64,000 bases of DNA from an uncultured Chloroflexia bacterium (GTDB lineage Bacteria; Chloroflexota; Limnocylindria; Limnocylindrales; CSP1-4). Every line of letters starts with the position of its first letter. The stretch's first letter is position 1. Position numbers and translations under genes: made by a program. The stretch is from NCBI GenBank assembly GCA_963734535.1, contig CAVTHS010000008.1:384001-448000 (forward strand), given 5' to 3'. Shown piece after piece: positions 5,328-19,750 of the stretch. The notes beneath the pieces are model-generated. The model searched no databases, was not told the origin of the DNA, and worked only from the letters and a program-made list of their open reading frames with translations.

Positions 5328-7277
5328 CTACGCCCCCTCGACGAGGAGCTGGTGCTCGTAGCTGAAGACCAGCGCATGCGGCTCGAGGTCGAGGCGCTGG
5401 GTCACCTGGCCGCGCTGGCCGGTGACAGGGTCCGCCCCGAAGAGACGAACGTCCTCCACGAGCTCCGTCCCGCGCAGCCCCTGGAGCACCGCGTACACCT
5501 CGCCCACCTGGACAGGGCGGCCGAACGGCCAGCCGGTGCCCTCCGGGCCGCCCGTGATCGGGTGGAAGTATCCGTAGATGGCACGCATCGCCTCGTCCTG
5601 GAGGCGCGTGGGGTTGACGCGAGGGCGTGCCCGGAGGCGCGCCACGATCGTGATGCCCCGGTAGGCCGGCGGCTCGACCAGCACGCGCGTGCCGACGACC
5701 CGGCATTCGTCGAGCCGGGCGGCGACCCGCGCGAGCGTCTCATCCGACGGCAGCAGCTGGTCGAAGCGGAGCCGCCCGGCGTCGGCCTCGGCAGCCGGCA
5801 CGACGAGGACGCGGACGGAGCCAGCGTCGACCCCGTCGCCCGCGGCCACGGCGCGCACCCGCGCCAGCTCCGGCGCCGCCTCGAGCGCGATGTGCTCGAA
5901 GTCCTCCGTGGTCACGGCGCGGCCGCGTGTGCGGAGCGAGATCGGGCCGCGCAGCTTCGCGTTCTCGATGTCCTCGCCGTCCACGCCGCCCGCCATGGGC
6001 CGGCGGTTCTCGACCCGGGAGACGTAGGCGATCGAGCTCTTGAGCACGCTGATCGCCCGCGGCGCGAGGTTCCCCTCCCGCCCGCCGCCCGTGAGGTACG
6101 CATCGACGCGGATGCGGGCACCCTTCGGCGGGACTCCGCCGTACTGGCGGACGGTCCCATCCTGCTCGCGGACTGCGGGCCCGAACGAGATCTCGCCCGC
6201 CACGGCATCGAGGACGAAGTGACGGTCGTCCGGCCCGGAGTCGGCGAAGTCCGGGACCTGGGTCCATTCCTGCCAGCCGGCCTCGTCGTCGGAGACGCCG
6301 AGCGTCATGGGCCGGTCGCCGGGCACGATGGGGCGATGCCTGACGGGGAACCGGCCGCCGGCAACGCCCTCCGCCGCGCCGAGAATCTCGTCGACGATCA
6401 CGTCGGCATGCACGGCCGCCGCCGTTCCGCCGATCGTGGCTGCCTCCAGGCCACGCACGTTCGGCGACGCGGAGTAGAAGGGCTGACCTTCCTCCGCTTC
6501 CGTGACACGCGCGCGGACCCAGCCCGCCCGTGTCTTCTCGATCACCGAGGCTGAATGGCCCGCCGGCAGGTGGACGACCACGTCGCCGTCCCGGTTCAGG
6601 CCGCCGGTGGTGTCGAGGTCGAGATCGCAGGCCTCCCAGTCCTCGCCCGTCCAGGCCTCCCAGGCGAGCGGCGGCCACGTTGGGTCCACCCCCACGCCCT
6701 CGATCGTGCACTTGAAGCGCAGCCGGAGCGCGTTCGACGGCGCCGGGTCGGAGAGGCCGATGAGAAGGAGGTCGCCTGGCTTCGGCTGGGTCTCGAACGC
6801 CAGGAAGTCGCGCGCGTTGAGCGCCTCGGTGGTGCGGTCGGCGTACTTCTTCCCATCCGCGGAGGTGAACGCGGCCGTGACCGCGACCGGCACGATCGGG
6901 AGGTCGTCGAGGGTCGTGAAGACGATTGCCTGGTCGGCCTCGGTGCGAATCGTCGCGGCCTGCGTCCCGCCGGGGATGCGGAGCGCCTGCGGCTGCGGGC
7001 CGGAGAGCCAGAACGTGACGTCGCCGCGCGCCGCGGACGGCGGGAAGAGCCGGATCCCGATCAGCTCCAGGAACTTGACGTAGTTGCGGTCCGGGACGCG
7101 ATTGACCCGGTAGAGGAGCTGGTCGGTCATCCAGGCGAAGAGCTCGATCAGGGTCACGCCCGGGTCGGAGACGTTGTGGTCGGTCCACTCGGGGCAGCGC
7201 TGCTGGACGAGCCGCTTCGCGTCGTCGACGAGGTCCTGGAAGCGGCGATCGTCCAGGTTGGGGACCGGCAGGGCCAT
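5328..7277 (-). CDS. Baseplate assembly protein (baseplate J / Afp11-like)
   Basis: MALPVPNLDDRRFQDLVDDAK...CPEWTDHNVSDPGVTLIELFAW; RAVTTEDFE; GWPFGR. Confidence 0.95.
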   Translation of the reverse strand: MALPVPNLDDRRFQDLVDDAKRLVQQRCPEWTDHNVSDPGVTLIELFAWMTDQLLYRVNRVPDRNYVKFLELIGIRLFPPSAARGDVTFWLSGPQPQALRIPGGTQAATIRTEADQAIVFTTLDDLPIVPVAVTAAFTSADGKKYADRTTEALNARDFLAFETQPKPGDLLLIGLSDPAPSNALRLRFKCTIEGVGVDPTWPPLAWEAWTGEDWEACDLDLDTTGGLNRDGDVVVHLPAGHSASVIEKTRAGWVRARVTEAEEGQPFYSASPNVRGLEAATIGGTAAAVHADVIVDEILGAAEGVAGGRFPVRHRPIVPGDRPMTLGVSDDEAGWQEWTQVPDFADSGPDDRHFVLDAVAGEISFGPAVREQDGTVRQYGGVPPKGARIRVDAYLTGGGREGNLAPRAISVLKSSIAYVSRVENRRPMAGGVDGEDIENAKLRGPISLRTRGRAVTTEDFEHIALEAAPELARVRAVAAGDGVDAGSVRVLVVPAAEADAGRLRFDQLLPSDETLARVAARLDECRVVGTRVLVEPPAYRGITIVARLRARPRVNPTRLQDEAMRAIYGYFHPITGGPEGTGWPFGRPVQVGEVYAVLQGLRGTELVEDVRLFGADPVTGQRGQVTQRLDLEPHALVFSYEHQLLVEGA

Positions 7278-7280
7278 CGC

Positions 7281-7682
7281 TCACTCCTCCGCGGGGATCA
7301 TGTAGAAGGGAAAGACGAGGTTCCGCGGGTCGTTCGATGACCCGACGGCGTAGCGGATGTCGATGTAGAGGGTCGCGGGCTCGTCGGGGTCGCGCGTGAC
7401 CTCCACCTCGCGCACGTCGATCCGGGGCTCCCAGCGACGAAGCGCGCCTCGAACGTCTGCCGCGATCCGGCCGAACGTGGACGGGTCGATCGCAGCGAAG
7501 ACCTCGTCGTGGATGCCGCACCCGAACTCGGGGCGCATCGGGCGCTCGCCGTAGGCAGTCCCCAGAACGAGCCGGATGCTCTCCTCGATCTCGCGCTCGT
7601 GCGTCACGAGGGCGATCCCGCCGGCAGCGTTGGTCCGGAGCGGGAAGGCCCAGCCGGCGCCGATGAACTCGTCGTTGACCAT
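7281..7682 (-). CDS. GPW/gp25 family baseplate / sheath initiator protein
   Basis: FIGAGWAFP, IEESIRLVLGTAYGERPMRPEFGC, RWEPRI, NLVFPFY. Confidence 0.95.
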   Translation of the reverse strand: MVNDEFIGAGWAFPLRTNAAGGIALVTHEREIEESIRLVLGTAYGERPMRPEFGCGIHDEVFAAIDPSTFGRIAADVRGALRRWEPRIDVREVEVTRDPDEPATLYIDIRYAVGSSNDPRNLVFPFYMIPAEE

Positions 7683-7693
7683 GTCCGTCCTCC

Positions 7694-9448
7694 TCAGCCC
7701 AGCGAGACCATGGAGCCCTTGACGGACGTGATGCCGCTGGACTCGAGGGAGAGCTGGCCTTCGCCGCTCACCTTGGTGCTCGCCGGCGAGCTGATCTCGA
7801 CCCCGCCCAGGCCCTTGATCTTCAACGAACCCTGGCAGTCGATCGTGAAGTCGCCCCCGGTCTTCATCTCGACCGTGCCGCTGCCGTCGGCCGTGACCAC
7901 GACCTTCTTGTTGGCGGCGTCCACGTGGATCTGGATCGTCCCGTCGGCCGAGGAGAGCAGGATCCCCTCGCTGCCGGACTCGTCGGAGAAGACCATCTTC
8001 TGGCCGGTCCGGCTGACGAGCTGGCGCGCCTTGAGCTTCTTGTCGCCGTCGATGTCGAACGGCGGCGGCTTGTCGACGCCGTTCCAGAGCCCGCCCAGCA
8101 CGTAGGGCTCGCTGACGTCACCCTGGTGGAACGCCACGAGCACCTCGTCCTGGACCTCGGGGAGCCAGACCAGGCCCCGGTTCGGGCCGTTGCCGGGAGC
8201 GACGACCCTGGCCCAGTCCGTGACGAAGTCGTGCCCGAGGTATGGCAGCTGGACGCGGACCCGCCCGAGGTCCGACGGGTCGGCGTTGTCCGACACGATC
8301 CCGATCTGCACGCCGGCCATGCCGCCACCCTGGCCGCTGCTGCCGCCACTCCCCGTGGTCAGCCCCAGCAGCGTCCGCTCCTGGCGCCCGCTCACCTCGA
8401 ACTGGGTTCGATATCCCTTCTTGTCGAAGATGTGGCGGGTGTGGGTGAGGGTGTAGCTCCCCGCGAAGGGAGCAGCAACCTCGGAGACGCTGACGGTGCT
8501 CCCAGCCTTGAGCTTCGGGTTGCCCGTGGCGGTGCCACTCGCCTCCGCGAATGCGCTGCCGACCTGCTCCGCGAGGGCCTTCGACGCGCTTTCAACCATC
8601 GGCTGCGTCGTGCGCGGCCGGTTCCCGCTCACGTAGCCGGGCAGACCGAAGATCGCGGCGATCGAGGCCGGCGTGTCGGGCAGCTGCACGCTCGTGGTCG
8701 CCGTGGGCTGCTCCGAGGTCAGCTCCGTCCTGCCGGACATGTCCCAGCCCCGAACGGTGACGGTGGCGACCTGGCCCCCTGCGGTCACGCGCGGCCGGAA
8801 CTCCTTCAGGTTCTGCCCGAAGACGAGCTGGAGGGCATTCGTGCTGTTCAGGTCACCGGCGGCCGGGGCGGTGGACGCATCCGGTGGCGGGGCGAAGCTG
8901 AACTTGCCGTCCGTGACCGCGACCTGGAAGCGGCGCTCACGGCCCAGGTCGGTGAGGAACTCCCAGTCGGTCTGGCCCGCCTGCAGGACGTACTCGAGGA
9001 CGTCGCGCGAGTCGGCGATGGTCCCCACCTCGAGGCCCAGGTCGGACGCGATGGTCCGTGCGATGTCCGAGTACTTCACCTGGCGGTAGACGGCCGAGCG
9101 CCTCGCATGCATGAGCCGGTGGCCCTGGTCGTAGCCGCGGACAACGAGCGTCGGTGCCTTGGACTCGTGGTAGACGCCTTCGAGCGCGGTGACCTCGCCC
9201 GTGATGAGGGGCGCCGGCGCGTCATCCTGGAGCGCTCTCCCCGAGATCACGATCTTCGCCCCGACCTTGAGGTGCGCCTTCGTCGCCACGTCCTTGCCCG
9301 GCGTCTCCTGGAAGACGATCTCGAACGTGTCGGGAAGCAGGAGGTGATCGTCCACGGTGACCTGCAGGACGCTGGGCTCCACGGCAGGGTCGAGCGGCTG
9401 ACCATCGACCTCGATCCGGACGGCGGTTGCGATCGGGGAGTCGGGCAT
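7694..9448 (-). CDS. VgrG-related spike/hub protein (Afp8-like)
   Basis: Q..QTDWEFL..L, gp27-like hub; OB-fold GIVSDNADP..LGRVRV..P, WARVV.PG.G..RG..WLPEV.DEVLVAF; beta-helix C-terminus. Confidence 0.93.
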   Translation of the reverse strand: MPDSPIATAVRIEVDGQPLDPAVEPSVLQVTVDDHLLLPDTFEIVFQETPGKDVATKAHLKVGAKIVISGRALQDDAPAPLITGEVTALEGVYHESKAPTLVVRGYDQGHRLMHARRSAVYRQVKYSDIARTIASDLGLEVGTIADSRDVLEYVLQAGQTDWEFLTDLGRERRFQVAVTDGKFSFAPPPDASTAPAAGDLNSTNALQLVFGQNLKEFRPRVTAGGQVATVTVRGWDMSGRTELTSEQPTATTSVQLPDTPASIAAIFGLPGYVSGNRPRTTQPMVESASKALAEQVGSAFAEASGTATGNPKLKAGSTVSVSEVAAPFAGSYTLTHTRHIFDKKGYRTQFEVSGRQERTLLGLTTGSGGSSGQGGGMAGVQIGIVSDNADPSDLGRVRVQLPYLGHDFVTDWARVVAPGNGPNRGLVWLPEVQDEVLVAFHQGDVSEPYVLGGLWNGVDKPPPFDIDGDKKLKARQLVSRTGQKMVFSDESGSEGILLSSADGTIQIHVDAANKKVVVTADGSGTVEMKTGGDFTIDCQGSLKIKGLGGVEISSPASTKVSGEGQLSLESSGITSVKGSMVSLG

Positions 9449-9451
9449 CGC

Positions 9452-10177
9452 TCAGGGCTCCCGAGCGGAGAGCTGCTTGGCCTCGACGACGGACGGCACG
9501 AGGACGCGCGTCCCGGCTGCCATCCGCAGCGGGTCGTCGATCTCGTTGAAGGCGGCGATCCCGCGCCAGAGGTTCGGGTCGCCGTACTCGCGGTAGGCGA
9601 TCCCGGCGAGGCTGTCGCCGTCGTCGAGCACGACACTGCGCCGGCTCTCGCGCGACCCCGATGTCGGGTTCTGCGCCGGCGTCTCCTCCGGGACCTCCTC
9701 GAGGGCGATCGTGCAGCTGGCGCGGATCGGCGTGCCATCCGATTTGAACAGGATGTACTTGGCGGAGACGGACTTCAGGAAGCAGCGGTAGTCCTGGAAG
9801 ATGCGGCTCGCACCCCACTCGAAGCGCAGGATCGGCGGCTGCGGGACGTGGCGGTCCATCGAGGCCCTGGTGGGCTTGGTCCAGTTGAGAAGCGCCTTGA
9901 CGCTCGTCGTGATGTCCGCGTCGGGGCTGTCCCAGGCGTCGAACCAGATCTCCATCTGGACGCTCTGCGGGCCGGCTCCGTGATACTCGGGCCGGCTCGA
10001 CGACCGCGCGCCGCGCGCCGGCGGGCGGTTCCAGTTCGCGGCCTTGCTGGTCGTGATCTCGGCCGGGTTGTACATGAAGCGGAGCTCGCCGACGGGCGCG
10101 CCACCGTCCGCGGGTGCCTGCGGGCCGCCTTCGACCCGCAGGACCGCGTGCTCCAGCTGGCCGCCGCCGTTGAGCAT
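9452..10177 (-). CDS. CIS tube-initiator protein with C-terminal LysM domain (Afp7-like)
   Basis: F.YNPAEI..K..NW, PPILRFEWG, F.SDGTPIRA, QNPTSG, GDSLAGIAYREYGDP.LWR.IA..N.IDDP. ATG overlaps the upstream stop (TGATG). Confidence 0.9.
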   Translation of the reverse strand: MLNGGGQLEHAVLRVEGGPQAPADGGAPVGELRFMYNPAEITTSKAANWNRPPARGARSSSRPEYHGAGPQSVQMEIWFDAWDSPDADITTSVKALLNWTKPTRASMDRHVPQPPILRFEWGASRIFQDYRCFLKSVSAKYILFKSDGTPIRASCTIALEEVPEETPAQNPTSGSRESRRSVVLDDGDSLAGIAYREYGDPNLWRGIAAFNEIDDPLRMAAGTRVLVPSVVEAKQLSAREP

Positions 10178-10602
10178 CAGCGCGTGAACCCGTTGTGGAC
10201 GAGCTCGAGGACCTCGAGCGCGACCTGGCTGGTGCCGGTGTCGAGGGTCGGCCCGGTCCACTTGGCGGGGTAGACGCCGGCGAGCTTCCACGAGGTGACC
10301 TTGGTGCCGCCCGAGTCGAGCAGCTCGATCTCCGCGGTGGAGCGCTTCGGGTCGCTCGCGACGGACGCCAGCCACACCGCCACCTTGCCGGTGTCCTTGT
10401 CGATCGGCCGGGTCAGCTTGATGTTCTGGTACTTCGCGCGGCCCGGCACGCGATGGACGAAGTCGTTCTGGCCACCCTCCTTGATCTCCTGGACGTCGTA
10501 CTCGACGGTCAGCCCCTCGCACTTGGTCCAGGCGCCAAGGTCCGTGTGGTCGTCCAGGGTGACCTTGAAGCGAAGGACGAGGCCGTACCCGGGATCGCTC
10601 AT
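10177..10602 (-). CDS. T4 gp19-like tail tube protein (second tube, Afp5-like)
   Basis: GAWTKCEGL, EGGQN.FVH..PGR.KY.NI.LTR, YP.KWTGP, VALE.LEL.HNG. Confidence 0.93.
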   Translation of the reverse strand: MSDPGYGLVLRFKVTLDDHTDLGAWTKCEGLTVEYDVQEIKEGGQNDFVHRVPGRAKYQNIKLTRPIDKDTGKVAVWLASVASDPKRSTAEIELLDSGGTKVTSWKLAGVYPAKWTGPTLDTGTSQVALEVLELVHNGFTR

Positions 10603-10636: not shown

Positions 10637-12985
10637 TCACGCGTCGACCAGCGTCCCGGCGCGCTCGCGGTCCAGGAGGAGCTCTGTCGTCAGGCGGGCA
10701 CGGATCCGGTCGTAGAGCTGGTCCGCGAGCTCCTCGTAGTCGGTGCCGGCGCCTCCCCCGGCCGCCGCCGCCGCTCCGGTCGAGCCGGACTGGCCTGCCG
10801 CGGCGGCGCCCGACTCCCCCGCGCCTGCTCCCCCGCCATCCGGCGTGACCGCAACCTCGTCGATCTGGACGGCACGCTGGACCGACGGGCCAGGGATCGG
10901 GGCGACGCTCGTGAACCCGGCCGCGGATGTCCAGCCGAGCGCCCCGCCAGGTCCGGCCGGGATCGTGTCCGGCCCGGACGCCCAGGACGACCCGGCCGCG
11001 CCGGCCGCCGCGCGCGCCACGGGAAGCGCGGAGAGCACGGCCGACGTCGGGCCTCGACCGGCATCCAGCGCGGCGCGGGAGACGACCGGACGCTCATCCC
11101 GCCGGAGGGCGCCGCCCGGAGCGGACGGGAAGCCCGGATGACCGGTCCACGTGGAGTCGGGGCCCGGGGTGCCGTATGGAGCGCCCCCATCGAACGACGG
11201 GAGCGCGATCCGCGCGATGACGGGCGTCGATTCGTCCACGGCGCGACGTGCCGGGCCGGCGATCGATGCCGTCGGGCCCGAACGCATGGCGCGCGCGGCG
11301 ACCATGGGCGCCATCGCGGGCGTTGCGCTTCTCGTGGCCGACGGTACCGGGGCAGACGATCCGGCTCCGGCCCACGCTGCGGCGGCGCGCTGGACGGCTG
11401 CGACGCCCCCGACCTCGGATCCCCCGCCGCTCGCGGGATCGCGGAGGGAGGCTGTGCTCGTCCATCCGGGTCCCGTCGCGCCAGCCGGCTGGCCCGCGCC
11501 CGGGACAACCGCCGAGCTGCTCGCGCGCTGGAGGGCGCCGACGCCCGGCTCCGCGGGTGCTTCCGCGTCGGACTCCGTGTCCTGGTCCTCCCGGGCAAGG
11601 CGCGCCACACCGATCGGCGACTCGCCCACGAGCGGTCGCACCGGGCGCGGCGCGTCGGGGGCCGTGTCCCCGGGGGACGCGTCGGTGGACGAGTCGACCG
11701 CGACGTCGGAGGGCACCTGCTCGGCCGGCGCAGACGAGCCCAGCCCGGACGAGACGGCCGGCGCAGACGAGCCCGGCGCACCGGATGACGCGGGCGCGGC
11801 GATCGGCGGGATCGCGGCGGTCGTGGTCGCGGACGCCGTCGCCGCGCGCCGCGCGACCACGAGGCGAGGCAGTGGCGAGGACGCGGCCGCGGCCGGGACC
11901 ATGCCCGGCAGCGCGGCCGGGTCCGGGGCCGTCGAGAGCATGGCGTCCCCGGTGCGGGCGCGCCGCATCACCGGCAGGTCGAACCGCGCGGCGTCCCGCG
12001 TCGCCGACGGAGGCGGGCCGACCAGCGGCGCCCCGAGGCCGAGGCGCCGGGACTCCCCGAGCGTCCGCCTCGTGACCGCCTGGGGATGATCGTCGGGTCG
12101 GCTCGGTGCGGCCGGCACCACCTCCGCCAGGTTCGGTCGGGAGCCGGCCGCGGGCTCCCCGGCGGCCTGCCCGCCCGCGGTCGCGTCAGCCGTCGCAGCA
12201 GCCGTCGCCGGCACGGGCGTCGCGGCCGCCGCGTCGCCATGGAGCGGCGATCCGGACGCGATGACCCGGGCCAGCGCCAGGACCGGGAGCGGCGCGCTCG
12301 TAGCGGCAACGCGCGTCGCCGCGATGGCCGGCGTGTCCGCCGCGAGCCGCGCGACGGGCAGCACGCGAAGTCCGGGGCCGGGAGCATCACTCGCCGAGAT
12401 CCCGGATGGCGCGCGGCGCTCGGCTGCGTCGGCTGCTTCGGCTGCGTCGGCTGCTTCGGCGCCCGTTTCGTCCTTGGGCCCGCGGACATCGGGGCCAGCT
12501 TCGAGCCCGGGATCCGCGGCCCCATGCCGTGGCAGCGTGGCCACCGTCGTGACCCCGCGCTGCGCGCTGGGCCGACCGCGCCGTGGAGTCGCCGCGGAAG
12601 GCATCGGCGGCGCGACCCGCGGGTCGGAGCCGGATGGCACGCGCTGGACCAGCGGCACCGTGATGCCGCTCACGAGACCCGCCGGACCGTCGGACGTCAC
12701 GTCGTGGCCGAGCGGCGCCAGGATCGGGTCGGGCGCGCGGCGGCTCGCCAGGTCGCGGGCGAAGGCTGCGCTCGGCGCGGTGAGGGGCGCCGCGCCGACG
12801 GTCCGCTGAACCGGGGCCAGGTCGCGCCAGGCGGAGGGACGCGATTCCACGCGCGGCCCCGGCCCGGGACCCGGCGGCGCGGACAACCCTCCCGCGGGCG
12901 CGGTGGGCGCGGCCTCGGGTGCGCCGGGCGCCGGATCGTCCCGGGCCGGTGCGCCGCGAAGCCAGTTCATGAAGGGCCAGCGCAC
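10637..12985 (-). CDS. Pro/Ala-rich low-complexity CIS protein with repeated VQR/VAR motifs; candidate tape-measure / tube-lumen protein
   Basis: 782-aa ORF, GTG behind GAGGAG. N-terminal AWRDLAPVQR, central RRLGLGAPL, C-terminal YEELADQLYDRIRARL..EL.LDRERAG resemble actinobacterial CIS 'extensin-like' proteins. Function inferred from position. Confidence 0.7.
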   Translation of the reverse strand: MRWPFMNWLRGAPARDDPAPGAPEAAPTAPAGGLSAPPGPGPGPRVESRPSAWRDLAPVQRTVGAAPLTAPSAAFARDLASRRAPDPILAPLGHDVTSDGPAGLVSGITVPLVQRVPSGSDPRVAPPMPSAATPRRGRPSAQRGVTTVATLPRHGAADPGLEAGPDVRGPKDETGAEAADAAEAADAAERRAPSGISASDAPGPGLRVLPVARLAADTPAIAATRVAATSAPLPVLALARVIASGSPLHGDAAAATPVPATAAATADATAGGQAAGEPAAGSRPNLAEVVPAAPSRPDDHPQAVTRRTLGESRRLGLGAPLVGPPPSATRDAARFDLPVMRRARTGDAMLSTAPDPAALPGMVPAAAASSPLPRLVVARRAATASATTTAAIPPIAAPASSGAPGSSAPAVSSGLGSSAPAEQVPSDVAVDSSTDASPGDTAPDAPRPVRPLVGESPIGVARLAREDQDTESDAEAPAEPGVGALQRASSSAVVPGAGQPAGATGPGWTSTASLRDPASGGGSEVGGVAAVQRAAAAWAGAGSSAPVPSATRSATPAMAPMVAARAMRSGPTASIAGPARRAVDESTPVIARIALPSFDGGAPYGTPGPDSTWTGHPGFPSAPGGALRRDERPVVSRAALDAGRGPTSAVLSALPVARAAAGAAGSSWASGPDTIPAGPGGALGWTSAAGFTSVAPIPGPSVQRAVQIDEVAVTPDGGGAGAGESGAAAAGQSGSTGAAAAAGGGAGTDYEELADQLYDRIRARLTTELLLDRERAGTLVDA

Positions 12986-12992
12986 GACGAAC

Positions 12993-13151
12993 TCACTCCT
13001 CTTCGGTCAGGCGCCGGTTGATCCCCGCGATCTCGTCGACGAAGCGGTGCCGGTCCGGGTGCTCCAGGTCGAGGATCTCGTCCATGGACCAGTGAAGGTG
13101 GTAGGCGACGTACGCGACCTCCTCGAAGAGGCGGTCGGCCGCGTACGTCAG
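12993..13151 (-). CDS. DUF6760-like small protein (absent from ORF track); probably the -1 frameshift extension of the upstream chaperone
   Basis: Manual translation (L)TYAADRLFEEVAYVAYHLHWSMDEILDLEHPDRHRFVDEIAGINRRLTEEE*. Matches the eCIS DUF6760 pattern EVAYxAYHxHWxxxxIxxLxH. No ATG/GTG/TTG at its conserved N-terminus. Confidence 0.8.
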   Translation of the reverse strand: MTYAADRLFEEVAYVAYHLHWSMDEILDLEHPDRHRFVDEIAGINRRLTEEE

Positions 13152-13585
13152 GATTCCCCCGGCGACGCGCCCCCGATCTCGACGCTGAACTCGTGGCGGC
13201 AGGCCGGACAGGTCACGGACGCCTGGGACGTCCCCTCCTGGTTGACGCGGCGGTAGAGATCCTGGAGGAACGCGAGGTCCGAGGCGAACATCCCCTCGAT
13301 GACCTGCGGCGTGATCATGGGGACGGTCCCCAGCCGGGAAACCACCCGGCTGAGCAGGATCACCGTGAGGTACGCCTCGTTCTCCCGGACGCGCGGATCG
13401 CGCAGCGGGAGGATCTCGTCGCGAGCCGTCGCCAGGCGCATCGCGCCCTCACGGTGGAGGGTGCCCGCGTCGTCGACATAGCCACGCGGCAGGACGAACG
13501 GGAACTCGGTCCGCAGGCCCGCCGGCGCGGGGCCGGACGCGCCGCCGGAGGCGGCTGCCGGCCCCGCGATCAGGTCGAGCGCCAC
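13148..13585 (-). CDS. Phage-type tail assembly chaperone (gpG / Mu gp41-like) of CIS
   Basis: TEF.F.LPRGYVD..G.LHREG.MRLATARDE, DPRV..N.AYL, SDLAFLQDLY.R.N, CPAC. Sits right after the major tube gene. Confidence 0.8.
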   Translation of the reverse strand: MALDLIAGPAAASGGASGPAPAGLRTEFPFVLPRGYVDDAGTLHREGAMRLATARDEILPLRDPRVRENEAYLTVILLSRVVSRLGTVPMITPQVIEGMFASDLAFLQDLYRRVNQEGTSQASVTCPACRHEFSVEIGGASPGES

Positions 13586-13586
13586 G

Positions 13587-14048
13587 TCACTTGATCCGCT
13601 CGAGCCGCTCGCAGACGATCGTGACGCTCTCGACCGACGGCGTGTTGTCCCCGGCCTTCATCCCGGTCGCCTCGAACTTCGAGATCCACGCGTGGAAGAA
13701 GTTGTACCGGGCAACCTCGCCGCCGGCGAAGTCGTACTGGACGATCGAGCCGTCCTTGCGGGCGCCGGTGATGGCGCCGTCGAGGGCAGCCTTGTGCCAG
13801 TTGTAGAGATCCATGCTCGAGTCGGCGGCGCGCTTCAGGGTGATGGTCGGCGGCTTCGTCGCCCCGATCATCTTCTTGAGGATGGGCTTGCCGAGGGCAT
13901 CATTCGCCTTCAGCTCCACGACCTCGATCTCGGAGCTGATGCCGCCCACCTCCTGGAAGGAAGCGATCGTGACGCCCCCGATCTCGATCTTGAAGCGCTG
14001 GGCGACGAGCGAGTCGAAGGGCGTCGCCGAGGGGAGTCCGGCTGCCAT
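13587..14048 (-). CDS. Major tail tube protein (gp19-like, Afp1-like)
   Basis: F.IEIGG..IASFQEVGG, PTITLKR, RKDGSI..YD..G.EVARYNF..AW, E.VTI.CE; directly after sheath. Confidence 0.93.
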   Translation of the reverse strand: MAAGLPSATPFDSLVAQRFKIEIGGVTIASFQEVGGISSEIEVVELKANDALGKPILKKMIGATKPPTITLKRAADSSMDLYNWHKAALDGAITGARKDGSIVQYDFAGGEVARYNFFHAWISKFEATGMKAGDNTPSVESVTIVCERLERIK

Positions 14049-14098: not shown

Positions 14099-15616
14099 TC
14101 ACTCGCTGAGCGACGTGCCGCCGGAGAACTGGGCGAGGCGGAAGATCACGAACTCGGCCGGCTTCACCGGGGCAACCCCGATGTCGACGATGAGCTGGCC
14201 GGCATCGATCGACTCCGCGGTGTTGTTCTCGCCGTCGCACTTGACGAAGAAGGCTTCGGCCGGCGACGCCCCGAAGAGCGCCCCGTCGCGCCACGTGCGG
14301 ACGAGGAACGACCCGACCGTGCGCTTCACGCGCTCCCAGAGGTCCATGTCGTTCGGCTCGAAGACAACCCACTGCGTCCCGAGCAGGATCGACTCCTCCA
14401 TGTAGTTGAACAGGCGTCGCACGTTGAGGTAGCGCCATGCCGGGTCCGACGAGAGCGTCCGGGCGCCCCAGACGCGGATCCCGCGACCGGGGAAGGTGCG
14501 GATGCAGTTGACCCCGATCGGGTTGAGCTGGTCGTGCTCCGCGCGGGTCAGGTTCAGCTCGAGCGAGATGGCACCCCGCACGATCTCGTTGGCGGGCGCC
14601 TTGTGCACCCCCCGCTCGCCGTCGCTGCGGGCCCAGATGCCGGCCATGTGACCGGACGGCGGCACGAACGCGGCCTGGCCCGCGATCGGATCGAAGACCT
14701 TGATCCACGGCCAGTAGAGCGTGGCGTACTTGGAATCGTAGCCCGCCTTGTCCTGGCGCCACTCCTTGATCTGCTGGGCGTTGTAGTCCGGTGGGGCGTC
14801 GAGGATCGCGACGCGATCGCCCATCAGCTCGCAGTGGGCCATGATCGCGAGCTGGACCGCCTTGACCCCTTCGAGGTCGATGACGCCCCGCTGGTAGAGC
14901 GCCATCAGGTCCGGCGCCGCCACCATCGTGATCTCCTCGACCGCCTCGAGGCCGCCGAACCCGGTCCGGTCCGCGGTGCTCCCAACGTATTCGTCGGGGG
15001 TGACGCGTGCGGGCGTGGCGCTCGTCCCGCCGGCCAGCATCGCCTTCGTCCCGGTGGCGGGGGCGAGGTCGCCCTTCGCGGTCTCCTCCAGGCGGACCAG
15101 CTTCGAGGTCTTCGTCGCGGTGAAGACGTTGTTGCGGCCCTTCTTGAGGCTGACGTTGTCGTAGACCTCGGTCTCGCTGCCGCGCGTCACGACCAGCTTG
15201 AAGACGCCCTCGCCGGGCTCGCCCGGGTCGCTCACCTCGACGGACACGTCGTTGCCGGTGGCGCCCGCGTCGAGCGCGACCACGCGGAAGGCCGCCTGGC
15301 CCTTGTCGGTGGAGCTCGGCAGCTCGAGGCGTGCGGTCGGGGCACCGGCGCCATCGGCGCCGATCCGGACGATGTAGGCGGTCGTGCCCCCGTTGAGGAA
15401 GAACCCGTAGACGGAGTGGGCCAGGTAGGACCCCTCCATGAAGTCGCCGAACGAGGCGACGAACTGGGTCCAGTTCGTGACCATCACCGGCGTGTTGGCG
15501 GGCCCCTTCTGGGCCAGGCCGACGAAGGCCGCGACGGCCGTCCCGACCCCCTCGATCGGGCGCGAGGCGGCCTGGACCTCCTCGACGTAGACGCCGGGCG
15601 AAAGGTAGTTCGGCAT
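14099..15616 (-). CDS. Contractile tail sheath protein
   Basis: MPNYLSPGVYVEE, DRVAILD.P, YWPWI, VPPSGHMAGIWAR.D..RGVHKAPAN, LNPIGVNCIR.FPGRGIRVWGARTLS, W.YLNVRRLF, P.KPAEFVIFR. Confidence 0.98.
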   Translation of the reverse strand: MPNYLSPGVYVEEVQAASRPIEGVGTAVAAFVGLAQKGPANTPVMVTNWTQFVASFGDFMEGSYLAHSVYGFFLNGGTTAYIVRIGADGAGAPTARLELPSSTDKGQAAFRVVALDAGATGNDVSVEVSDPGEPGEGVFKLVVTRGSETEVYDNVSLKKGRNNVFTATKTSKLVRLEETAKGDLAPATGTKAMLAGGTSATPARVTPDEYVGSTADRTGFGGLEAVEEITMVAAPDLMALYQRGVIDLEGVKAVQLAIMAHCELMGDRVAILDAPPDYNAQQIKEWRQDKAGYDSKYATLYWPWIKVFDPIAGQAAFVPPSGHMAGIWARSDGERGVHKAPANEIVRGAISLELNLTRAEHDQLNPIGVNCIRTFPGRGIRVWGARTLSSDPAWRYLNVRRLFNYMEESILLGTQWVVFEPNDMDLWERVKRTVGSFLVRTWRDGALFGASPAEAFFVKCDGENNTAESIDAGQLIVDIGVAPVKPAEFVIFRLAQFSGGTSLSE

Positions 15617-15670
15617 GCGGATCGGCCCTCCCGGGCTGCGAAGGTAGGGACCGGTCGAGCGTGGCACCGG

Positions 15671-15843
15671 GGGCACGATCGCGGCAACGGGCGACCGGAC
15701 AGCCGAAGGGGCCGGTCGAGCTGCCCGATGGGGCACCGGGGGCGACCCGATCGGCTGCCCCAGGGCGGCTTGCCGCACGACGGACACCTTGCGAGGCTGA
15801 CCCAGGCGGGTCGACGTGCCCGCGGCCGAATGCGCGCCTGCCC
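15671..15843. promoter_or_regulatory. Divergent promoter region with clustered GGGCA/TGCCC boxes, including a TGCCC-N4-GGGCA palindrome
   Basis: Boxes at 15671, 15722, 15731, 15756, 15817 and 15839, between the divergent sheath and DUF4255 starts. Confidence 0.35.
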
Positions 15844-15906
15844 GGACCCGCGATCGGGGTCGGCCGGCGACCAGCGTCCCGCGACGGACCACCAGGGGTG
15901 CACCGG

Positions 15907-16659
15907 ATGATCGAGGAAGTCGACGAGACGCTTCGGGGCCTGATCCGGACCGAGGTCCTGAGCGGAAGCCAGGTGGAGGTCTCGTTCGACGCCCCCACCA
16001 AGGACTGGGCGTCGCGGCGCAACGCGCCGACGATCAACCTCTACCTCTACGACATCCGCGAGGACCTGTCGCGGCGCGACGCCGCGTGGGCACCGGTGTA
16101 CGCCGCGGAGGGCTACGTCACCGGCCACCAGCCTCCGCCGCGGCACTACAAGCTCCAGTACATGGTCACCGCGTGGACGCAGCGTCCGGAGGACGAACAC
16201 CGGCTCCTCTCCGCGTGCCTCGGGGCGTTCCTCCGCCACGAGACGCTGGGCCCATCCGAGATGACGGGCGCGCTCGCCGAGCAGCCGCTGCCGGCCATGC
16301 TGAGCGTGGGCCTGCCGCTCGGGCCGGACCGCTCCATCGCCGACGTCTGGTCGGCCCTCGGCGGGGAGCTGAAGCCGTCTCTCGACGTCATCTTCAACGC
16401 GCCGTTCGTGGTCGGTCGGAGCCTGTCTGCCGGGGCACCCGTTCGCGAGCTGCCGCGGCTCTCGATCGCCCGTGCCGACGATCGCGGCGAGCCCGAGCGC
16501 CCGGCACGCGCCATGGCGGGCCGCGGGAACGCCTCGGTCCGCCGGAGCAGGCCGCTGTCCCCCGACGAGACGCCCGTTGCCCAGGACGAGACCGTGGTCG
16601 GCGGGACGAAGGCGAAACCCGGACGCACGTACCGGATCCGCGGCTATCCGCGGCCCTGA
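15907..16659 (+). CDS. DUF4255 / Pvc16 (Afp16-like) cap / tail-terminator protein
   Basis: MI.EVD..LR.L, V.FDAPT.DW..RRNAPTINLYLYDIRED, PP....L.Y.VTAW, EDEHRLL, VWSALGGELKPSLD. Confidence 0.92.
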   Translation: MIEEVDETLRGLIRTEVLSGSQVEVSFDAPTKDWASRRNAPTINLYLYDIREDLSRRDAAWAPVYAAEGYVTGHQPPPRHYKLQYMVTAWTQRPEDEHRLLSACLGAFLRHETLGPSEMTGALAEQPLPAMLSVGLPLGPDRSIADVWSALGGELKPSLDVIFNAPFVVGRSLSAGAPVRELPRLSIARADDRGEPERPARAMAGRGNASVRRSRPLSPDETPVAQDETVVGGTKAKPGRTYRIRGYPRP

Positions 16660-16682
16660 CCGTCCATGACCGGCGGCCCAGC

Positions 16683-18770: not shown

Positions 18771-18826
18771 GATGGAGACGCACCGGCGGCACGCGCGGCC
18801 GAGCAGGGATTGACGGGAGCGGGACG

Positions 18827-19750
18827 ATGTCAGACGACGCCACGGCCATGCGGGAGGACGCGAGCATGCACCGCCACGAGCACGAGCGGGAGACGCCGCC
18901 ACGCCGCCCGATCCGGCGCTCCGGCGATGAAGCCGCCGCGACGGCGCTCGCGGCCCGGGCCGCTGCCGCAGGACGAACGGACGCGCTCGGCCCGGCTTCG
19001 GTCCTGCGCCTCCAGCGTGCGGCGGGCAATGCCGGTGTCGCCGGACTCTTCGATGGCGCGTCGGAGCCGGAATCGCCGGTGAAGGACGTGGTCGGCCGTG
19101 GAGGCGGAGCCCCGCTCGCGCCCGCCGTCCGGGAGCGCATGGAGTCGAGCTTCGGGACCGACTTCTCCGACGTCCGGGTCCACAGCGGCGGGGGCGCGGC
19201 GGCGTCGGCCCGCGCCGTCGATGCGCACGCCTACACCGTCGGCAACGAGATCGTCCTGGGCGACGGCCACGCCGAGGGCTCGTCGGCGCACGAGCGGACG
19301 CTGGCCCACGAGCTGACCCACGTGGTCCAGCAGCGATCCGGGCCCGTGGATGGCACCCCCGCCCCCGGCGGGATCTCGGTCAGCAGCCCGAGCGATCGCT
19401 TCGAGCGCGCCGCCGAGACGACCGCCGATCAGGTCATCTCGACGGGACGAGCCGGCGACGGCGCGGGACACGCAGCACCGGCGATCCAGCGCGAGGCCGC
19501 CCCCGAGGATGAGAACGAGGTCCAGGAGCTCGCGATCCAGCGTCGCGACGAGTCGGAGGACGTGCCGGACGAGGTGCCGACGCCCGGGGATGAGCCGCAC
19601 GACGTCCAGCGGCCCGAGGAAGGGCCGGCGCCGGCCGGCGCTTCGGAGGTCCAGCGGCCCGAGGAGGAACAGGACGAGGTCCAGCAGCTCGCGATCCAGC
19701 GCCGGGCCTCGCGGCGGACGGGTGGCGGGGCCGCGGCTGGGCAGCTGTAG
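18827..19750 (+). CDS. DUF4157 (eCIS-core) domain protein with acidic IQR/VQR-repeat tail
   Basis: LRLQR.AGN..V, G.PL...VR..ME..FG.DFSDVRVH, A.AYTVG..IV, LAHELTHVVQQ (HExxH). Confidence 0.9.
   Translation: MSDDATAMREDASMHRHEHERETPPRRPIRRSGDEAAATALAARAAAAGRTDALGPASVLRLQRAAGNAGVAGLFDGASEPESPVKDVVGRGGGAPLAPAVRERMESSFGTDFSDVRVHSGGGAAASARAVDAHAYTVGNEIVLGDGHAEGSSAHERTLAHELTHVVQQRSGPVDGTPAPGGISVSSPSDRFERAAETTADQVISTGRAGDGAGHAAPAIQREAAPEDENEVQELAIQRRDESEDVPDEVPTPGDEPHDVQRPEEGPAPAGASEVQRPEEEQDEVQQLAIQRRASRRTGGGAAAGQL

What the first reader, a model, noticed from the sequence alone, without database searches (positions are those of the whole stretch)
12993..13585. Candidate programmed -1 ribosomal frameshift joining the CIS tail chaperone to DUF6760 (lambda gpG/gpGT analogue)
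Seen: the chaperone ends CCG GGG GAA TCC TGA, with G GGG GAA at 13160-13154. The -1 frame reads GGG GGA ATC CTG ACG TAC GCG... straight into the DUF6760-like sequence TYAADRLFEEVAYVAYHLHW..., which has no ATG/GTG/TTG at its N-terminus. Known: long-tailed phages make G and G-T chaperones by a frameshift between the tube gene and the tape-measure gene, which is this position. Inference: DUF6760 is the 'T' part of a recoded chaperone rather than a separate gene. I am not aware of this being established for eCIS. The heptamer is an imperfect X XXY YYZ, with only P-site re-pairing.
Basis: partly seen in the sequence, partly recalled or inferred. Interest (0 to 1): 0.78.

Follow-up and report, generated by a model that had tools for sequence, protein, structure and literature searches.

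The report
Frameshift joins CIS chaperone to DUF6760
In a phage-tail-like injection machine of soil bacteria, the small "DUF6760" reading frame has no usable start of its own and is most likely made only when ribosomes slip back one base at a run of G's at the end of the tail-assembly chaperone gene, as phage lambda does with its G and GT proteins.

Summary

- **The junction in the window.** The chaperone at 13148-13585(-) hits the PHROG tail-assembly-chaperone family. It ends CCG GGG GAA TCC TGA. DUF6760 (Pfam, 55 bits) follows in the -1 frame, with CTG at the stop overlap and no ATG/GTG/TTG upstream.
- **93 related loci.** 91 carry an in-phase G_GGG_GAA, G_GGG_GGA or G_GGG_GGG. The base before TGA is G 59, C 26, A 7, T 1. 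This matches neutral Ser-codon usage (p=0.41) and changes as often as free synonymous sites, so no start codon is selected there.
- **A second subfamily.** It includes a genome at 46% GC and uses TAG or TAA stops. 16 of 19 loci have no start codon near DUF6760, yet all 19 keep the heptamer.
- **Hairpin.** A conserved hairpin with covariation sits about 5 nt downstream. The two subfamilies build it from different sequences.
- **Known motif.** GGGGGAA is the motif annotated in about a thousand actinophage chaperone frameshifts (PMC10885494).
- **Not an assembly error.** DNA and RNA-library contigs show no indel at the junction.
- **Limits.** No protein evidence exists. The G-run also resembles a ribosome-binding site. 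A distant subfamily makes DUF6760 as a separate gene.

I found no report of this in my literature searches.

The parts
13587..14048 (-). tail tube gene (gp19 type), immediately upstream of the chaperone
   Evidence: PF06841, 99 bits
13148..13585 (-). tail assembly chaperone, 145 aa, zero frame, the 'G' analogue. Its C-terminal part carries a CPxC motif.
   Evidence: phrog_508 'tail assembly chaperone', E 3.3e-7. 33 of 33 aligned homologues hit the same family.
13154..13160 (-). slippery heptamer G_GGG_GAA in the chaperone frame, one sense codon before the stop
   Evidence: In phase in 91 of 93 related loci as GGGGGAA 34, GGGGGGA 24, GGGGGGG 32. Same motif as actinophage chaperone frameshifts (PMC10885494).
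13148..13153 (-). Last sense codon TCC plus stop TGA of the chaperone. In the -1 frame the CTG at 13151-13149 overlaps the stop (C-TGA). Bases 13153-13149 form the 5-nt spacer between heptamer and stem.
   Evidence: N of NTGA is G 59, C 26, A 7, T 1, which is neutral.
13108..13148 (-). RNA hairpin. The 5' arm is 13148-13139 and the 3' arm is 13117-13108, a 10-bp core ACGUACGCGG / UCGCGUACGU. It starts at the A of UGA.
   Evidence: MFE -28.5 kcal/mol, z -3.9, 0 of 200 shuffles as good. RNAalifold finds the same stem. 92.4% of cells paired. Pair 30-54 is GC 54, AU 7, CG 5, GU 5.
12993..13160 (-). -1 frame read after the slip: GGG GGA ATC CTG, then DUF6760 (TYAADRLFEEV... to ...TEEE, stop at 12995-12993). 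This is the 'T' analogue. The predicted fusion is 197 aa: chaperone residues 1-144 plus 53 residues.
   Evidence: PF20546, 55 bits. No canonical start. dN/dS is 0.18 in CTG loci. AF2 model is three helices, pLDDT 84.
10637..12985 (-). 782-aa Ala/Pro-rich protein, tape-measure-like by position, starting 10 nt after the DUF6760 stop
   Evidence: No Pfam hit. Length is 320-936 aa across 64 loci, and only residues about 50-120 and the last 35 or so are conserved. The role is inferred from position only.
5328..10602 (-). Rest of the contractile-injection-system core downstream: second tube (10177-10602), CIS_tube protein (ORF 9452-10522), VgrG-like spike (7694-9448), gp25 (7281-7682), baseplate J (5328-7277)
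   Evidence: Pfam hits
14099..15892 (-). tail sheath gene upstream of the tube
   Evidence: PF04984 and PF17482

Best explanation
A programmed -1 ribosomal frameshift of the lambda G/GT type operates in a bacterial contractile injection system.

**Default product.** Most ribosomes translate the chaperone to its UGA and release a 145-aa protein.

**Frameshift product.** A fraction pause with tRNA-Gly on GGG (P site) and tRNA-Glu on GAA (A site). The pause is held by the hairpin that begins 5 nt downstream. Both tRNAs slip back one base onto GGG and GGA, the latter through a G:U pair. Translation then continues in the -1 frame through Ile-Leu into DUF6760. The result is a 197-aa chaperone-DUF6760 fusion made at a fixed low ratio to the chaperone.

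**Inferred function.** By analogy with lambda, the chaperone part would coat the tape-measure protein. The DUF6760 part, a three-helix domain, would recruit the tube protein to start tube polymerisation.

**Shown here:**
- the anatomy of the junction;
- its conservation in phase;
- the lack of selection for a start codon;
- the hairpin and its covariation;
- purifying selection on DUF6760 in loci without a start codon.

**Inferred:**
- that slippage occurs, and its efficiency;
- the binding partners.

In relatives whose overlap codon happens to be GTG or ATG, some free DUF6760 may be made as well.
For: 1. **No start codon in the window.** CTG sits at the overlap and no ATG/GTG/TTG lies upstream in the open frame. 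L003, L004, L049 and L071 have none anywhere in the frame.
2. **The overlap base is unconstrained.**
   - N of NTGA is G 59, C 26, A 7, T 1 in 93 loci.
   - Where the last codon is Ser, counts are TCG 54, TCC 25, TCA 5, TCT 1. Usage in long ORFs of the same loci is .564/.347/.053/.036 (n=3720). Chi2 is 2.89, p 0.41.
   - On an ML tree of 88 loci N changes 14 times. Free synonymous sites change 13-24 times and constrained ones 0-1.
3. **DUF6760 is equally constrained without a start.** dN/dS is 0.18 in 25 CTG loci and 0.23 in 56 GTG loci.
4. **The heptamer is kept at nucleotide level.**
   - It is in phase in 91 of 93 loci. The two exceptions, L009 and L016, are long-read assemblies with one G fewer.
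   - Codon GGG occurs in 90 of 90 loci against 22% usage.
   - The third base of the preceding codon is G in 88 of 90, although the residue varies.
5. **The GYP-type subfamily.** This covers 19 loci from Chloroflexota and Actinomycetota, GC 0.46-0.75.
   - The heptamer is in phase in 19 of 19. For L129 this comes from reading, because the script matched an upstream run there.
   - It lies 0-1 codons before a TAG, TAA or TGA stop in most.
   - 16 of 19 have no canonical start within 8 codons of the domain.
   - L107 sits between tube genes in a 46% GC genome.
6. **Hairpin about 5 nt after the heptamer.**
   - TYA type: 92.4% of cells paired and 12 double changes at pair 30-54. 0 of 500 shuffles reach the observed covariation score.
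   - Synonymous invariance in the arms: ACG 90 of 90 (usage .49), GCG 88 of 89 (.41), and two Tyr codons TAC 88 of 89 and 90 of 90. The next Tyr is TAC 48, TAT 40.
   - GYP type uses a different stem, GGCUACC.CCUCG / CGAGG.GGUAGCC. 89.9% of cells are paired, and the rare Val codon GTA occurs in 18 of 19.
8. **Gene identity and order.** The order is tube, chaperone, -1 ORF, tape-measure-like gene.
9. **The G-run sits badly as a ribosome-binding site in some loci.** In L085 and L104 it lies 1 nt from the ATG. In the window's own genome, ATGA junctions use GGAGG in 42 of 48 cases, mostly 6-10 nt upstream.
10. **A different heptamer at the same place.** L108 has C_CCT_TTA, in phase, one codon before the stop.
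11. **No indel at the junction** in DNA or RNA-library contigs.
Against: - **No protein evidence.** There is no junction peptide, ribosome profile or reporter assay, and the efficiency is unknown.
- **The cited precedent is annotation.** The phage frameshifts at GGGGGAA are curated annotations. Their authors say they are mostly not experimentally tested.
- **The G-run resembles a ribosome-binding site.** GGGGG can pair with the anti-Shine-Dalgarno. 67 of 93 TYA-type loci do have GTG, ATG or TTG at the NTGA overlap, so coupled re-initiation could make free DUF6760 there.
- **Ordinary look-alikes exist.** At least one other junction in the same genome (C3:219316) has G7-TC-GTGA before a 225-codon ORF.
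- **DUF6760 can work as its own polypeptide.** In a distant subfamily (7 of 25 Actinomycetota loci) it has its own ATG or GTG and ribosome-binding site, in variable phase, behind a longer chaperone homologue.
- **The hairpin is not universal.** Three TYA-type loci (L082, L094, L106) lack a good one.
- **Most stem pairs cannot covary.** They are invariant, and the stem core is a palindrome set by Thr/Ala-Tyr codons. Covariation therefore rests on a few pairs.
- **Loci are not independent.** They are related, and many come from metagenome bins.
Confidence: 0.82

Rival explanations
1. DUF6760 is a separate small protein made by termination-reinitiation. The ribosome that stops at UGA restarts on the overlapping NUG (CUG in the window). 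The G-run serves as Shine-Dalgarno, and the hairpin enforces coupling by blocking free initiation.
For: - The NTGA overlap is present in 93 of 93 TYA-type loci, and 67 of 93 have GTG, ATG or TTG there.
- Most database entries are called as 52-aa proteins starting at that codon.
- GGGGG occurs as a ribosome-binding-site-like motif at other overlaps in this genome, and a 4-nt spacing is seen in 4 of 48 ATGA junctions.
- C3:219316 has the same G7-TC-GTGA layout.
- A distant subfamily makes DUF6760 from its own ATG.
Against: - N follows neutral codon usage and changes at the neutral rate. CTG occurs in 26 of 93 loci with equal purifying selection on DUF6760.
- 16 of 19 GYP-type loci have TAG or TAA stops and codons such as ATA, GTA, GCC or GTT instead of any NUG, yet keep the in-phase heptamer.
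- The run is never GGAGG, the usual ribosome-binding site of this genome, in 93 loci.
- In L085 and L104 it is 1 nt from the ATG.
Confidence: 0.1
2. RNA polymerase slips on the G-run, and a fraction of mRNAs carry one extra G. This puts DUF6760 in frame with the chaperone, so the same fusion arises at the transcript level.
For: - The site is a homopolymer of 5-7 G in 92 of 93 loci (4 G in L071).
- An added G would give the same fusion.
- L009 and L016 show that one-base length changes occur at this run, at least in assemblies.
Against: - From my own knowledge, known transcriptional slippage uses longer runs, mostly A or T.
- The run must be in codon phase, which polymerase slippage would not require.
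- A conserved hairpin at frameshift-stimulator spacing lies downstream.
- RNA-library contigs X15 and X17 show no indel at the run, though contigs drop rare variants.
Confidence: 0.05
3. The junction is an assembly or sequencing error, or DUF6760 here is a decaying pseudogene after loss of its start codon.
For: - Homopolymer runs are error-prone.
- Some database 'fusions' are visibly garbled long-read assemblies.
Against: - The identical junction occurs in independent assemblies and in contigs of 2 DNA and 2 RNA-library runs without indels.
- CTG clades are old and keep DUF6760 under purifying selection, with dN/dS 0.08-0.28 within clades.
Confidence: 0.02

Closest known systems
Phage lambda gpG / gpGT tail assembly chaperones (-1 frameshift at G_GGA_AAG near the end of G). 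Source: Levin 1993 and Xu, Hendrix, Duda 2004/2013/2014, as summarised in PMC5009743 (passages read).
   Same: - The chaperone gene sits just before the tape-measure gene.
- The slip site is at the very 3' end of the chaperone ORF.
- The -1 ORF has no start of its own.
- Two products share an N-terminal part.
   Different: - The host is a bacterial contractile injection system, not a phage.
- The heptamer is a G-run.
- A conserved downstream hairpin is present. From memory, lambda needs none.
- The extension is a 52-aa DUF6760 three-helix domain with no detectable similarity to phage T parts.
- The ratio and the binding partners are untested.
Actinobacteriophage tail-assembly-chaperone frameshifts at GGGGGAA (SEA-PHAGES annotations; 'fivetwo' motif in PRFect, PMC10885494, passages read)
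   Same: - The heptamer is identical.
- The context is likewise high-GC.
- The gene class is the same (phrog_508 tail assembly chaperone).
- The G:U re-pairing logic is the same.
   Different: - tblastn finds no similarity of either protein to 50,697 phage records.
- The locus is cellular, with sheath, VgrG and baseplate genes.
- Relatives also use GGGGGGA and GGGGGGG.
P2 E / E+E' and related contractile-tail phage or tailocin chaperone frameshifts. This is recalled; PMC5009743 mentions P2 in the passage seen, but I did not read the details.
   Same: It is a contractile tail with a chaperone frameshift ahead of the tape measure.
   Different: The proteins and the slippery sequence differ. I did not test homology to E or E'.
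E. coli dnaX -1 frameshift (heptamer plus downstream stem-loop plus upstream SD-like element). This is recalled.
   Same: A chromosomal bacterial gene has a heptamer followed after a short spacer by a stable stem-loop. G-rich SD-like sequence is involved.
   Different: dnaX shortens the product by reaching a stop in the -1 frame, whereas here the shift extends it. The Rfam DnaX model gives only a sub-threshold hit at another place (17.9 against 35 bits).

Membership tests
G/GT-type tail assembly chaperone frameshift | The upstream ORF is a tail assembly chaperone placed after the tube gene and before the tape measure. | tested here: met
   phrog_508, E 3.3e-7, and 33 of 33 homologues match. 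The order is tube, chaperone, DUF6760, 782-aa protein. The tape-measure identity of the 782-aa protein rests on position and variable length only.
G/GT-type tail assembly chaperone frameshift | The downstream ORF overlaps in the -1 frame and lacks its own start. | tested here: met
   The window has CTG and no canonical start. 26 of 93 TYA-type and 16 of 19 GYP-type loci lack one. In the other TYA-type loci the overlap codon is a start codon at the frequency expected from neutral codon usage.
G/GT-type tail assembly chaperone frameshift | [quoted passage not shown] | tested here: met
   G_GGG_GAA at 13160-13154. It is in phase in 91 of 93 and 19 of 19 loci.
G/GT-type tail assembly chaperone frameshift | Both the short and the extended protein are made, at a fixed ratio, and both are needed for tail assembly. 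| not testable with these tools
   Needs protein analysis and genetics in a carrier or a heterologous host.
G/GT-type tail assembly chaperone frameshift | The G part binds the tape measure and the T part binds the tube protein (PMC5009743). | not tested
   The pairing expected from lambda (DUF6760 with the tube protein) was not submitted. See Tried and rejected for the one complex job that was run.
Pfam DUF6760 (PF20546) | Score over the gathering threshold | tested here: met
   55 bits against 27, residues 8-55, profile positions 5-52 of 89.
Contractile injection system (phage-tail-like, eCIS/CIS) | Sheath, tube, VgrG-like spike, gp25 and baseplate J genes in one cluster | tested here: met
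Contractile injection system (phage-tail-like, eCIS/CIS) | AAA+ ATPase (Afp15-like) and tail terminator (Afp16/DUF4255-like). No capsid or replication genes, that is, not a prophage. | not tested
   The ORFs upstream of the sheath (16146-16628, 16644-18902) gave no Pfam hit. The rest of the window was not annotated.

The most novel reading that the evidence does not exclude
A lambda-like G/GT recoding switch is an ancestral, conserved part of cellular contractile injection systems in at least three bacterial phyla. The Pfam family DUF6760 is its 'T' domain, not a gene. The signal has been rebuilt at least twice: two different hairpins, three G-run heptamers and one CCCTTTA. One lineage resolved it into two separately translated genes. 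That lineage offers a natural experiment on why the chaperone-to-fusion ratio matters for assembling a tube of set length.
Probability: 0.7. Interest if true: 0.72.

Novelty: new member of a known kind. Interest (0 to 1): 0.68.

Why it matters
- **A rare kind of case.** Conserved programmed frameshifts in chromosomal bacterial operons are few. This one would add a case that spans three phyla and is directly testable.
- **It assigns a role to DUF6760.** The role would be the frameshift-added domain of the tail assembly chaperone. It also explains why gene callers annotate the family inconsistently. Of the 150 best cluster representatives, 40 carry 10 or more spurious N-terminal residues read from the overlapping frame.
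- **It bears on engineering.** For people who engineer contractile injection systems as delivery devices, it points to an assembly factor. That factor would be lost if the operon were recoded or split at the annotated gene borders.
- **It supports the motif.** It gives independent comparative support that GGGGGAA, so far an annotation-based motif in actinophages, is a functional slippery site.

Tried and rejected
- **Complex prediction.** DUF6760 was tested against the N-terminal 130 and C-terminal 90 residues of the 782-aa protein. The result was no answer (score 0.00), which is not evidence either way. After reading PMC5009743 I note that the lambda model predicts the tube protein, not the tape measure, as the T partner.
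- **AF2 model of the chaperone.** Built from a 33-row alignment, it had pLDDT 51.7. That is too poor for a fold search, so none was run.
- **AF2 model of DUF6760.** pLDDT was 84, with three helices. Foldseek against BFVD gave no match with E<=0.001 (best 2.5).
- **tblastn against 50,697 phage records.** Neither protein gave a match.
- **Pfam and NCBIfam for the chaperone and the 782-aa protein.** Nothing over threshold. Only weak zinc-ribbon hits for the CPxC tail, in 17 of 33 members at E<=0.1.
- **Rfam.** Three sub-threshold hits, none at the junction.
- **Natural in-frame fusions as support.**
  - 10 longer proteins were found. Most carry garbled stretches typical of indel-rich long-read assemblies.
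  - L009 and L016 have one G fewer.
  - I do not count any of these.
- **Genome-wide survey of NTGA overlaps in the window's genome.** It was meant to get a background rate of CTGA junctions. My ORF criteria let through too many non-junctions (C 198 of 634), so it is not usable. Only the ribosome-binding-site spacing table was kept.
- **The search of earlier findings by sequence and by place.** Nothing returned.
- **Literature searches.** None turned up a report of a frameshift in a contractile injection system.
  - 'DUF6760': 0 papers.
  - 'contractile injection system' + 'tail assembly chaperone' + 'frameshift': 2 papers, unrelated by their listings.
  - 'extracellular contractile injection' + 'ribosomal frameshifting': 0 papers.
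  - 'eCIS' + 'frameshift': 37 papers, and the 15 listed are unrelated by title.
  - With 'Streptomyces': 1 unrelated paper.
  - 'tailocin' + 'tail assembly chaperone' + 'frameshift': 2 papers, 1 listed, unrelated.
  - Subscription journals and supplements were not searchable.
Full report
**What is in the window**

All genes of interest lie on the minus strand. The order, from high to low coordinates, is:

| Coordinates | Gene | Evidence |
|---|---|---|
| 14099-15892 | sheath | |
| 13587-14048 | gp19-type tube | |
| 13148-13585 | 145-aa protein (chaperone) | |
| stop at 12995-12993 | DUF6760 frame | |
| 10637-12985 | 782-aa Ala/Pro-rich protein | |
| 10177-10602 | second tube | |
| ORF 9452-10522 | CIS_tube protein | |
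| 7694-9448 | VgrG-like spike | |
| 7281-7682 | gp25 | |
| 5328-7277 | baseplate J | |

- The 145-aa protein has no Pfam or NCBIfam hit. It matches PHROG 508, 'tail assembly chaperone' (E 3.3e-7). All 33 of 33 aligned homologues match the same family.
- The next frame is DUF6760 (PF20546, 55 bits against 27).
- The window belongs to a 3.2-Mb metagenome bin with 72% GC. Its relatives are labelled Chloroflexota or Limnocylindrales.

**The observation**

- The chaperone ends CCG GGG GAA TCC TGA, with GGGGGAA at 13160-13154.
- The -1 frame reads GGG GGA ATC CTG ACG TAC..., which is GGILTYAADR... It is open for 100 codons upstream of the Thr without any ATG, GTG or TTG.
- Contigs of two DNA runs and two RNA-library runs lie across the junction. 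The only indel row in the 801 bases is at 12994, in one contig.
- L002, L003 and L007 are independent assemblies with the same junction. It is therefore not an assembly error.

**First impression, and why it did not hold**

- Most database DUF6760 proteins are 52 aa and begin M/V-TYAADRLF. Their start is the NTG that overlaps the chaperone stop as NTGA.
- That looks like ordinary translational coupling, with the window carrying a mutated start.
- The DNA of 93 'TYA-type' loci says otherwise. These are the window, 79 of the 80 loci, and 13 of the 25 loci.
- N is G 59, C 26, A 7, T 1. N is the third base of the chaperone's last codon, usually Ser TCN.
- The observed counts are TCG 54, TCC 25, TCA 5, TCT 1. 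Ser codon usage in long ORFs of the same loci is .564/.347/.053/.036 (n=3720). The two match: chi2 2.89, p 0.41.
- On a maximum-likelihood tree of 88 loci N changes 14 times. That is the same as freely evolving synonymous sites (13-24), while constrained synonymous sites change 0-1 times.
- CTG clades are not decaying. dN/dS of DUF6760 is 0.18 in 25 CTG loci and 0.23 in 56 GTG loci.
- Four loci have no canonical start anywhere in the frame.
- A start codon at this position is therefore not under selection, although the protein is.

**What is under selection**

- *The G-run.*
  - The Gly codon before the last two codons is GGG in 90 of 90 loci, against 22% usage.
  - The third base of the codon before it is G in 88 of 90, while the residue varies among L, P, S, Q and A.
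  - The run therefore always reads G_GGG_G.. in the chaperone frame: GGGGGAA 34, GGGGGGA 24, GGGGGGG 32.
  - There are three exceptions. One locus has GGGGAAA. L009 and L016 are long-read assemblies that have one G fewer, which puts both ORFs in one frame.
- *A hairpin.*
  - RNAalifold and my own proposal give the same 10-bp stem, alignment columns 22-31 with 53-62. This is window 13148-13139 with 13117-13108. It begins at the A of UGA, 5 nt after the heptamer.
  - In the window it folds at -28.5 kcal/mol, z -3.9.
  - The arms are frozen at synonymous sites: ACG 90 of 90 (usage .49), GCG 88 of 89 (.41), and TAC 88 of 89 and 90 of 90. The next Tyr codon, outside the stem, is TAC 48, TAT 40.
  - The one freely variable pair covaries: GC 54, AU 7, CG 5, GU 5, other 6. 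0 of 500 shuffles reach the observed covariation score, and 92.4% of cells pair against at most 49% when the partner is slid.
  - The tool warns that relatedness inflates the shuffle test. Most pairs never vary, so this is moderate evidence, not proof.

**The second subfamily settles the start-codon question**

Sampling 401 Chloroflexota and 401 Actinomycetota genomes with the Pfam model gave 34 and 22 genomes with a match. Among them are 19 tabulated 'GYP-type' loci with GC 0.46-0.75. Their chaperone homologue has the same CPxC tail.

- The chaperone ends with the in-phase G-run heptamer in 19 of 19. For L129 this comes from reading, because the script matched an upstream run there.
- In one search's table the heptamer lies 0 codons (10 loci) or 1 codon (6 loci) before a TAG, TAA or TGA stop.
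- In 16 of 19 the DUF6760 frame has no ATG, GTG or TTG within 8 codons of the domain. The codons there are ATA, GTA, GCC, GTT and the like. The exceptions are L085 and L104 (ATG) and L134 (GTG).
- L122, read by eye, also has none.
- L098 is a related locus outside the table. It has a G7 heptamer, then TAG, then a GTG one codon before Tyr.
- L107 comes from a 46% GC genome. It has sheath, tube, chaperone, DUF6760 and tube in order, and ATG GGG GGA TAG at the junction.
- These loci carry a different hairpin, GGCUACC.CCUCG / CGAGG.GGUAGCC, again 4-6 nt after the heptamer. 89.9% of cells pair, the outer pair covaries (GC 11, CG 2, UA 1), and the rare Val codon GTA occurs in 18 of 19.
- L095 and L120 lack the stop overlap altogether. 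The chaperone frame runs on 12 and 5 codons past the heptamer, which makes the heptamer the only conserved link.
- L108 has no G-run but carries C_CCT_TTA, a canonical heptamer. It is in phase, one codon before the stop. This is a single case.

**Link to known biology**

[quoted passage not shown] It adds that G:U pairing lets the second tRNA re-pair on GGA (PMC10885494, passages).
- The same paper says those frameshifts are annotations, mostly untested (section 7).
- The lambda model is summarised in PMC5009743 (passages).
  - gpG and the G part of gpGT bind the tape measure.
  - The -1 encoded T part binds the tube protein.
  - The ratio is about 30:1.
  - The arrangement is conserved in long-tailed phages.
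- The locus here has the same gene order and logic.

**Mechanism proposed**

- Tandem -1 slippage occurs on G_GGG_GAA, stimulated by the hairpin 5 nt downstream and perhaps by the nearby stop.
- The product is a 197-aa fusion: chaperone residues 1-144 plus 53 residues.
- DUF6760 folds as three helices (pLDDT 84).
- Its partner is inferred, not shown.

**Evidence against, and limits**

- There are no protein data.
- The G-run could double as a ribosome-binding site.
  - In this genome ATGA junctions mostly use GGAGG (42 of 48), 6-10 nt upstream. GGGGG and 4-nt spacings do occur.
  - Another junction, C3:219316, has G7-TC-GTGA before a 225-codon ORF.
- 67 of 93 TYA-type loci could make free DUF6760 by coupled restart.
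- In 7 of 25 Actinomycetota loci ('type D') DUF6760 has its own ATG or GTG and a GGAGG-like ribosome-binding site, in variable phase. It follows a longer chaperone homologue with an Ala/Glu-rich tail (phrog_508, E 1.6e-5). So the domain can work as a separate polypeptide.
- L082, L094 and L106 lack a convincing hairpin.
- Many loci are related metagenome bins. Six of the ten TYA-type loci duplicate loci and were not counted twice.
- Loci L088 and L115 come from unpublished genomes and were left out of all counts.

**Novelty**

- Six literature searches found no report of a frameshift in a contractile injection system and no paper that mentions DUF6760.
- The library lacks most subscription journals.
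- The mechanism is the known G/GT kind. The new points are its presence in cellular injection systems of three phyla, the reading of DUF6760 as the T domain, and the two alternative stimulatory hairpins.
- The family has 488 cluster representatives at E<=0.001. Of the best 150, 40 are annotated with 10 or more extra N-terminal residues taken from the overlapping frame.

**Verdict**

- Confidence in a -1 frameshift at this junction is 0.82.
- It is a new member of a known kind. Interest is 0.68.

Noticed in passing
L009:2995-3072 and L016:2995-3072: Two long-read metagenome bins have one G fewer in the run (GGGGGAT). This puts the chaperone and DUF6760 in one frame. It is probably a homopolymer assembly error, but a true fused allele is not excluded.
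   Followed up: partly
L093, L096, L097, L099, L101, L102, L103 (Actinomycetota): In a distant subfamily DUF6760 (M-[RK]-RYP...) has its own ATG or GTG and ribosome-binding site. It follows a longer chaperone homologue with an Ala/Glu-rich C-terminal extension ending ..EEVGRSTGRP.. The phase varies: ATGA, TGATG, TAG-ATG, or spaced. L096 still keeps an in-phase G_GGG_GGC.
   Followed up: partly
L108 (G695:C2), junction about 1400-1440 of the oriented locus: The chaperone ends TCC CCT TTA GCG TGA. This gives a canonical C_CCT_TTA heptamer in phase instead of a G-run, plus a GTGA overlap. DUF6760 there has a longer acidic linker.
   Followed up: partly
window 10637-12985 and homologues: The tape-measure-like protein varies from 320 to 936 aa among 64 loci. 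Only residues about 50-120 and the last 35 or so are conserved. In L107 and L108 no such gene lies between DUF6760 and the second tube gene.
   Followed up: partly
proteins P0003, P0005-P0009, P0133 and others: Gene callers give many DUF6760 entries a false N-terminus of 17-30 residues (for example MPPRVRRGDRGR...). This is the chaperone's C-terminus read in the -1 frame. It affects 40 of the 150 best cluster representatives.
   Followed up: yes
proteins P0127, P0155, P0224, P0239: A few database proteins of 315-773 aa begin with DUF6760 and run on, as if fused to the following tape-measure-like gene. Whether these are real fusions or assembly errors was not checked.
   Followed up: no
G000:C3:219316(+), G000:C8:433458(-), G000:C3:115648(+), G000:C6:178100(+): Four other places in the window's genome have an in-phase G-run heptamer within 10 codons of a stop and a long open -1 frame. 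Two of them have a GTGA overlap. They are probably ordinary coupled genes with a G-rich ribosome-binding site. The gene identities were not examined.
   Followed up: no
alignment A2, columns 10-14 with 69-74 (window 13160-13156 with 13101-13096): RNAalifold also pairs the G-run itself with the downstream CAC-YUN of the His codons. This would enclose the hairpin. It may be incidental G:pyrimidine pairing.
   Followed up: no
window 12900-13700: Contigs from soil and peat RNA libraries (6 RNA runs of 4 studies hold part of the stretch) cover the chaperone and DUF6760. One 636-base contig spans exactly 12993-13628. Contigs cannot prove transcription or transcript ends.
   Followed up: partly
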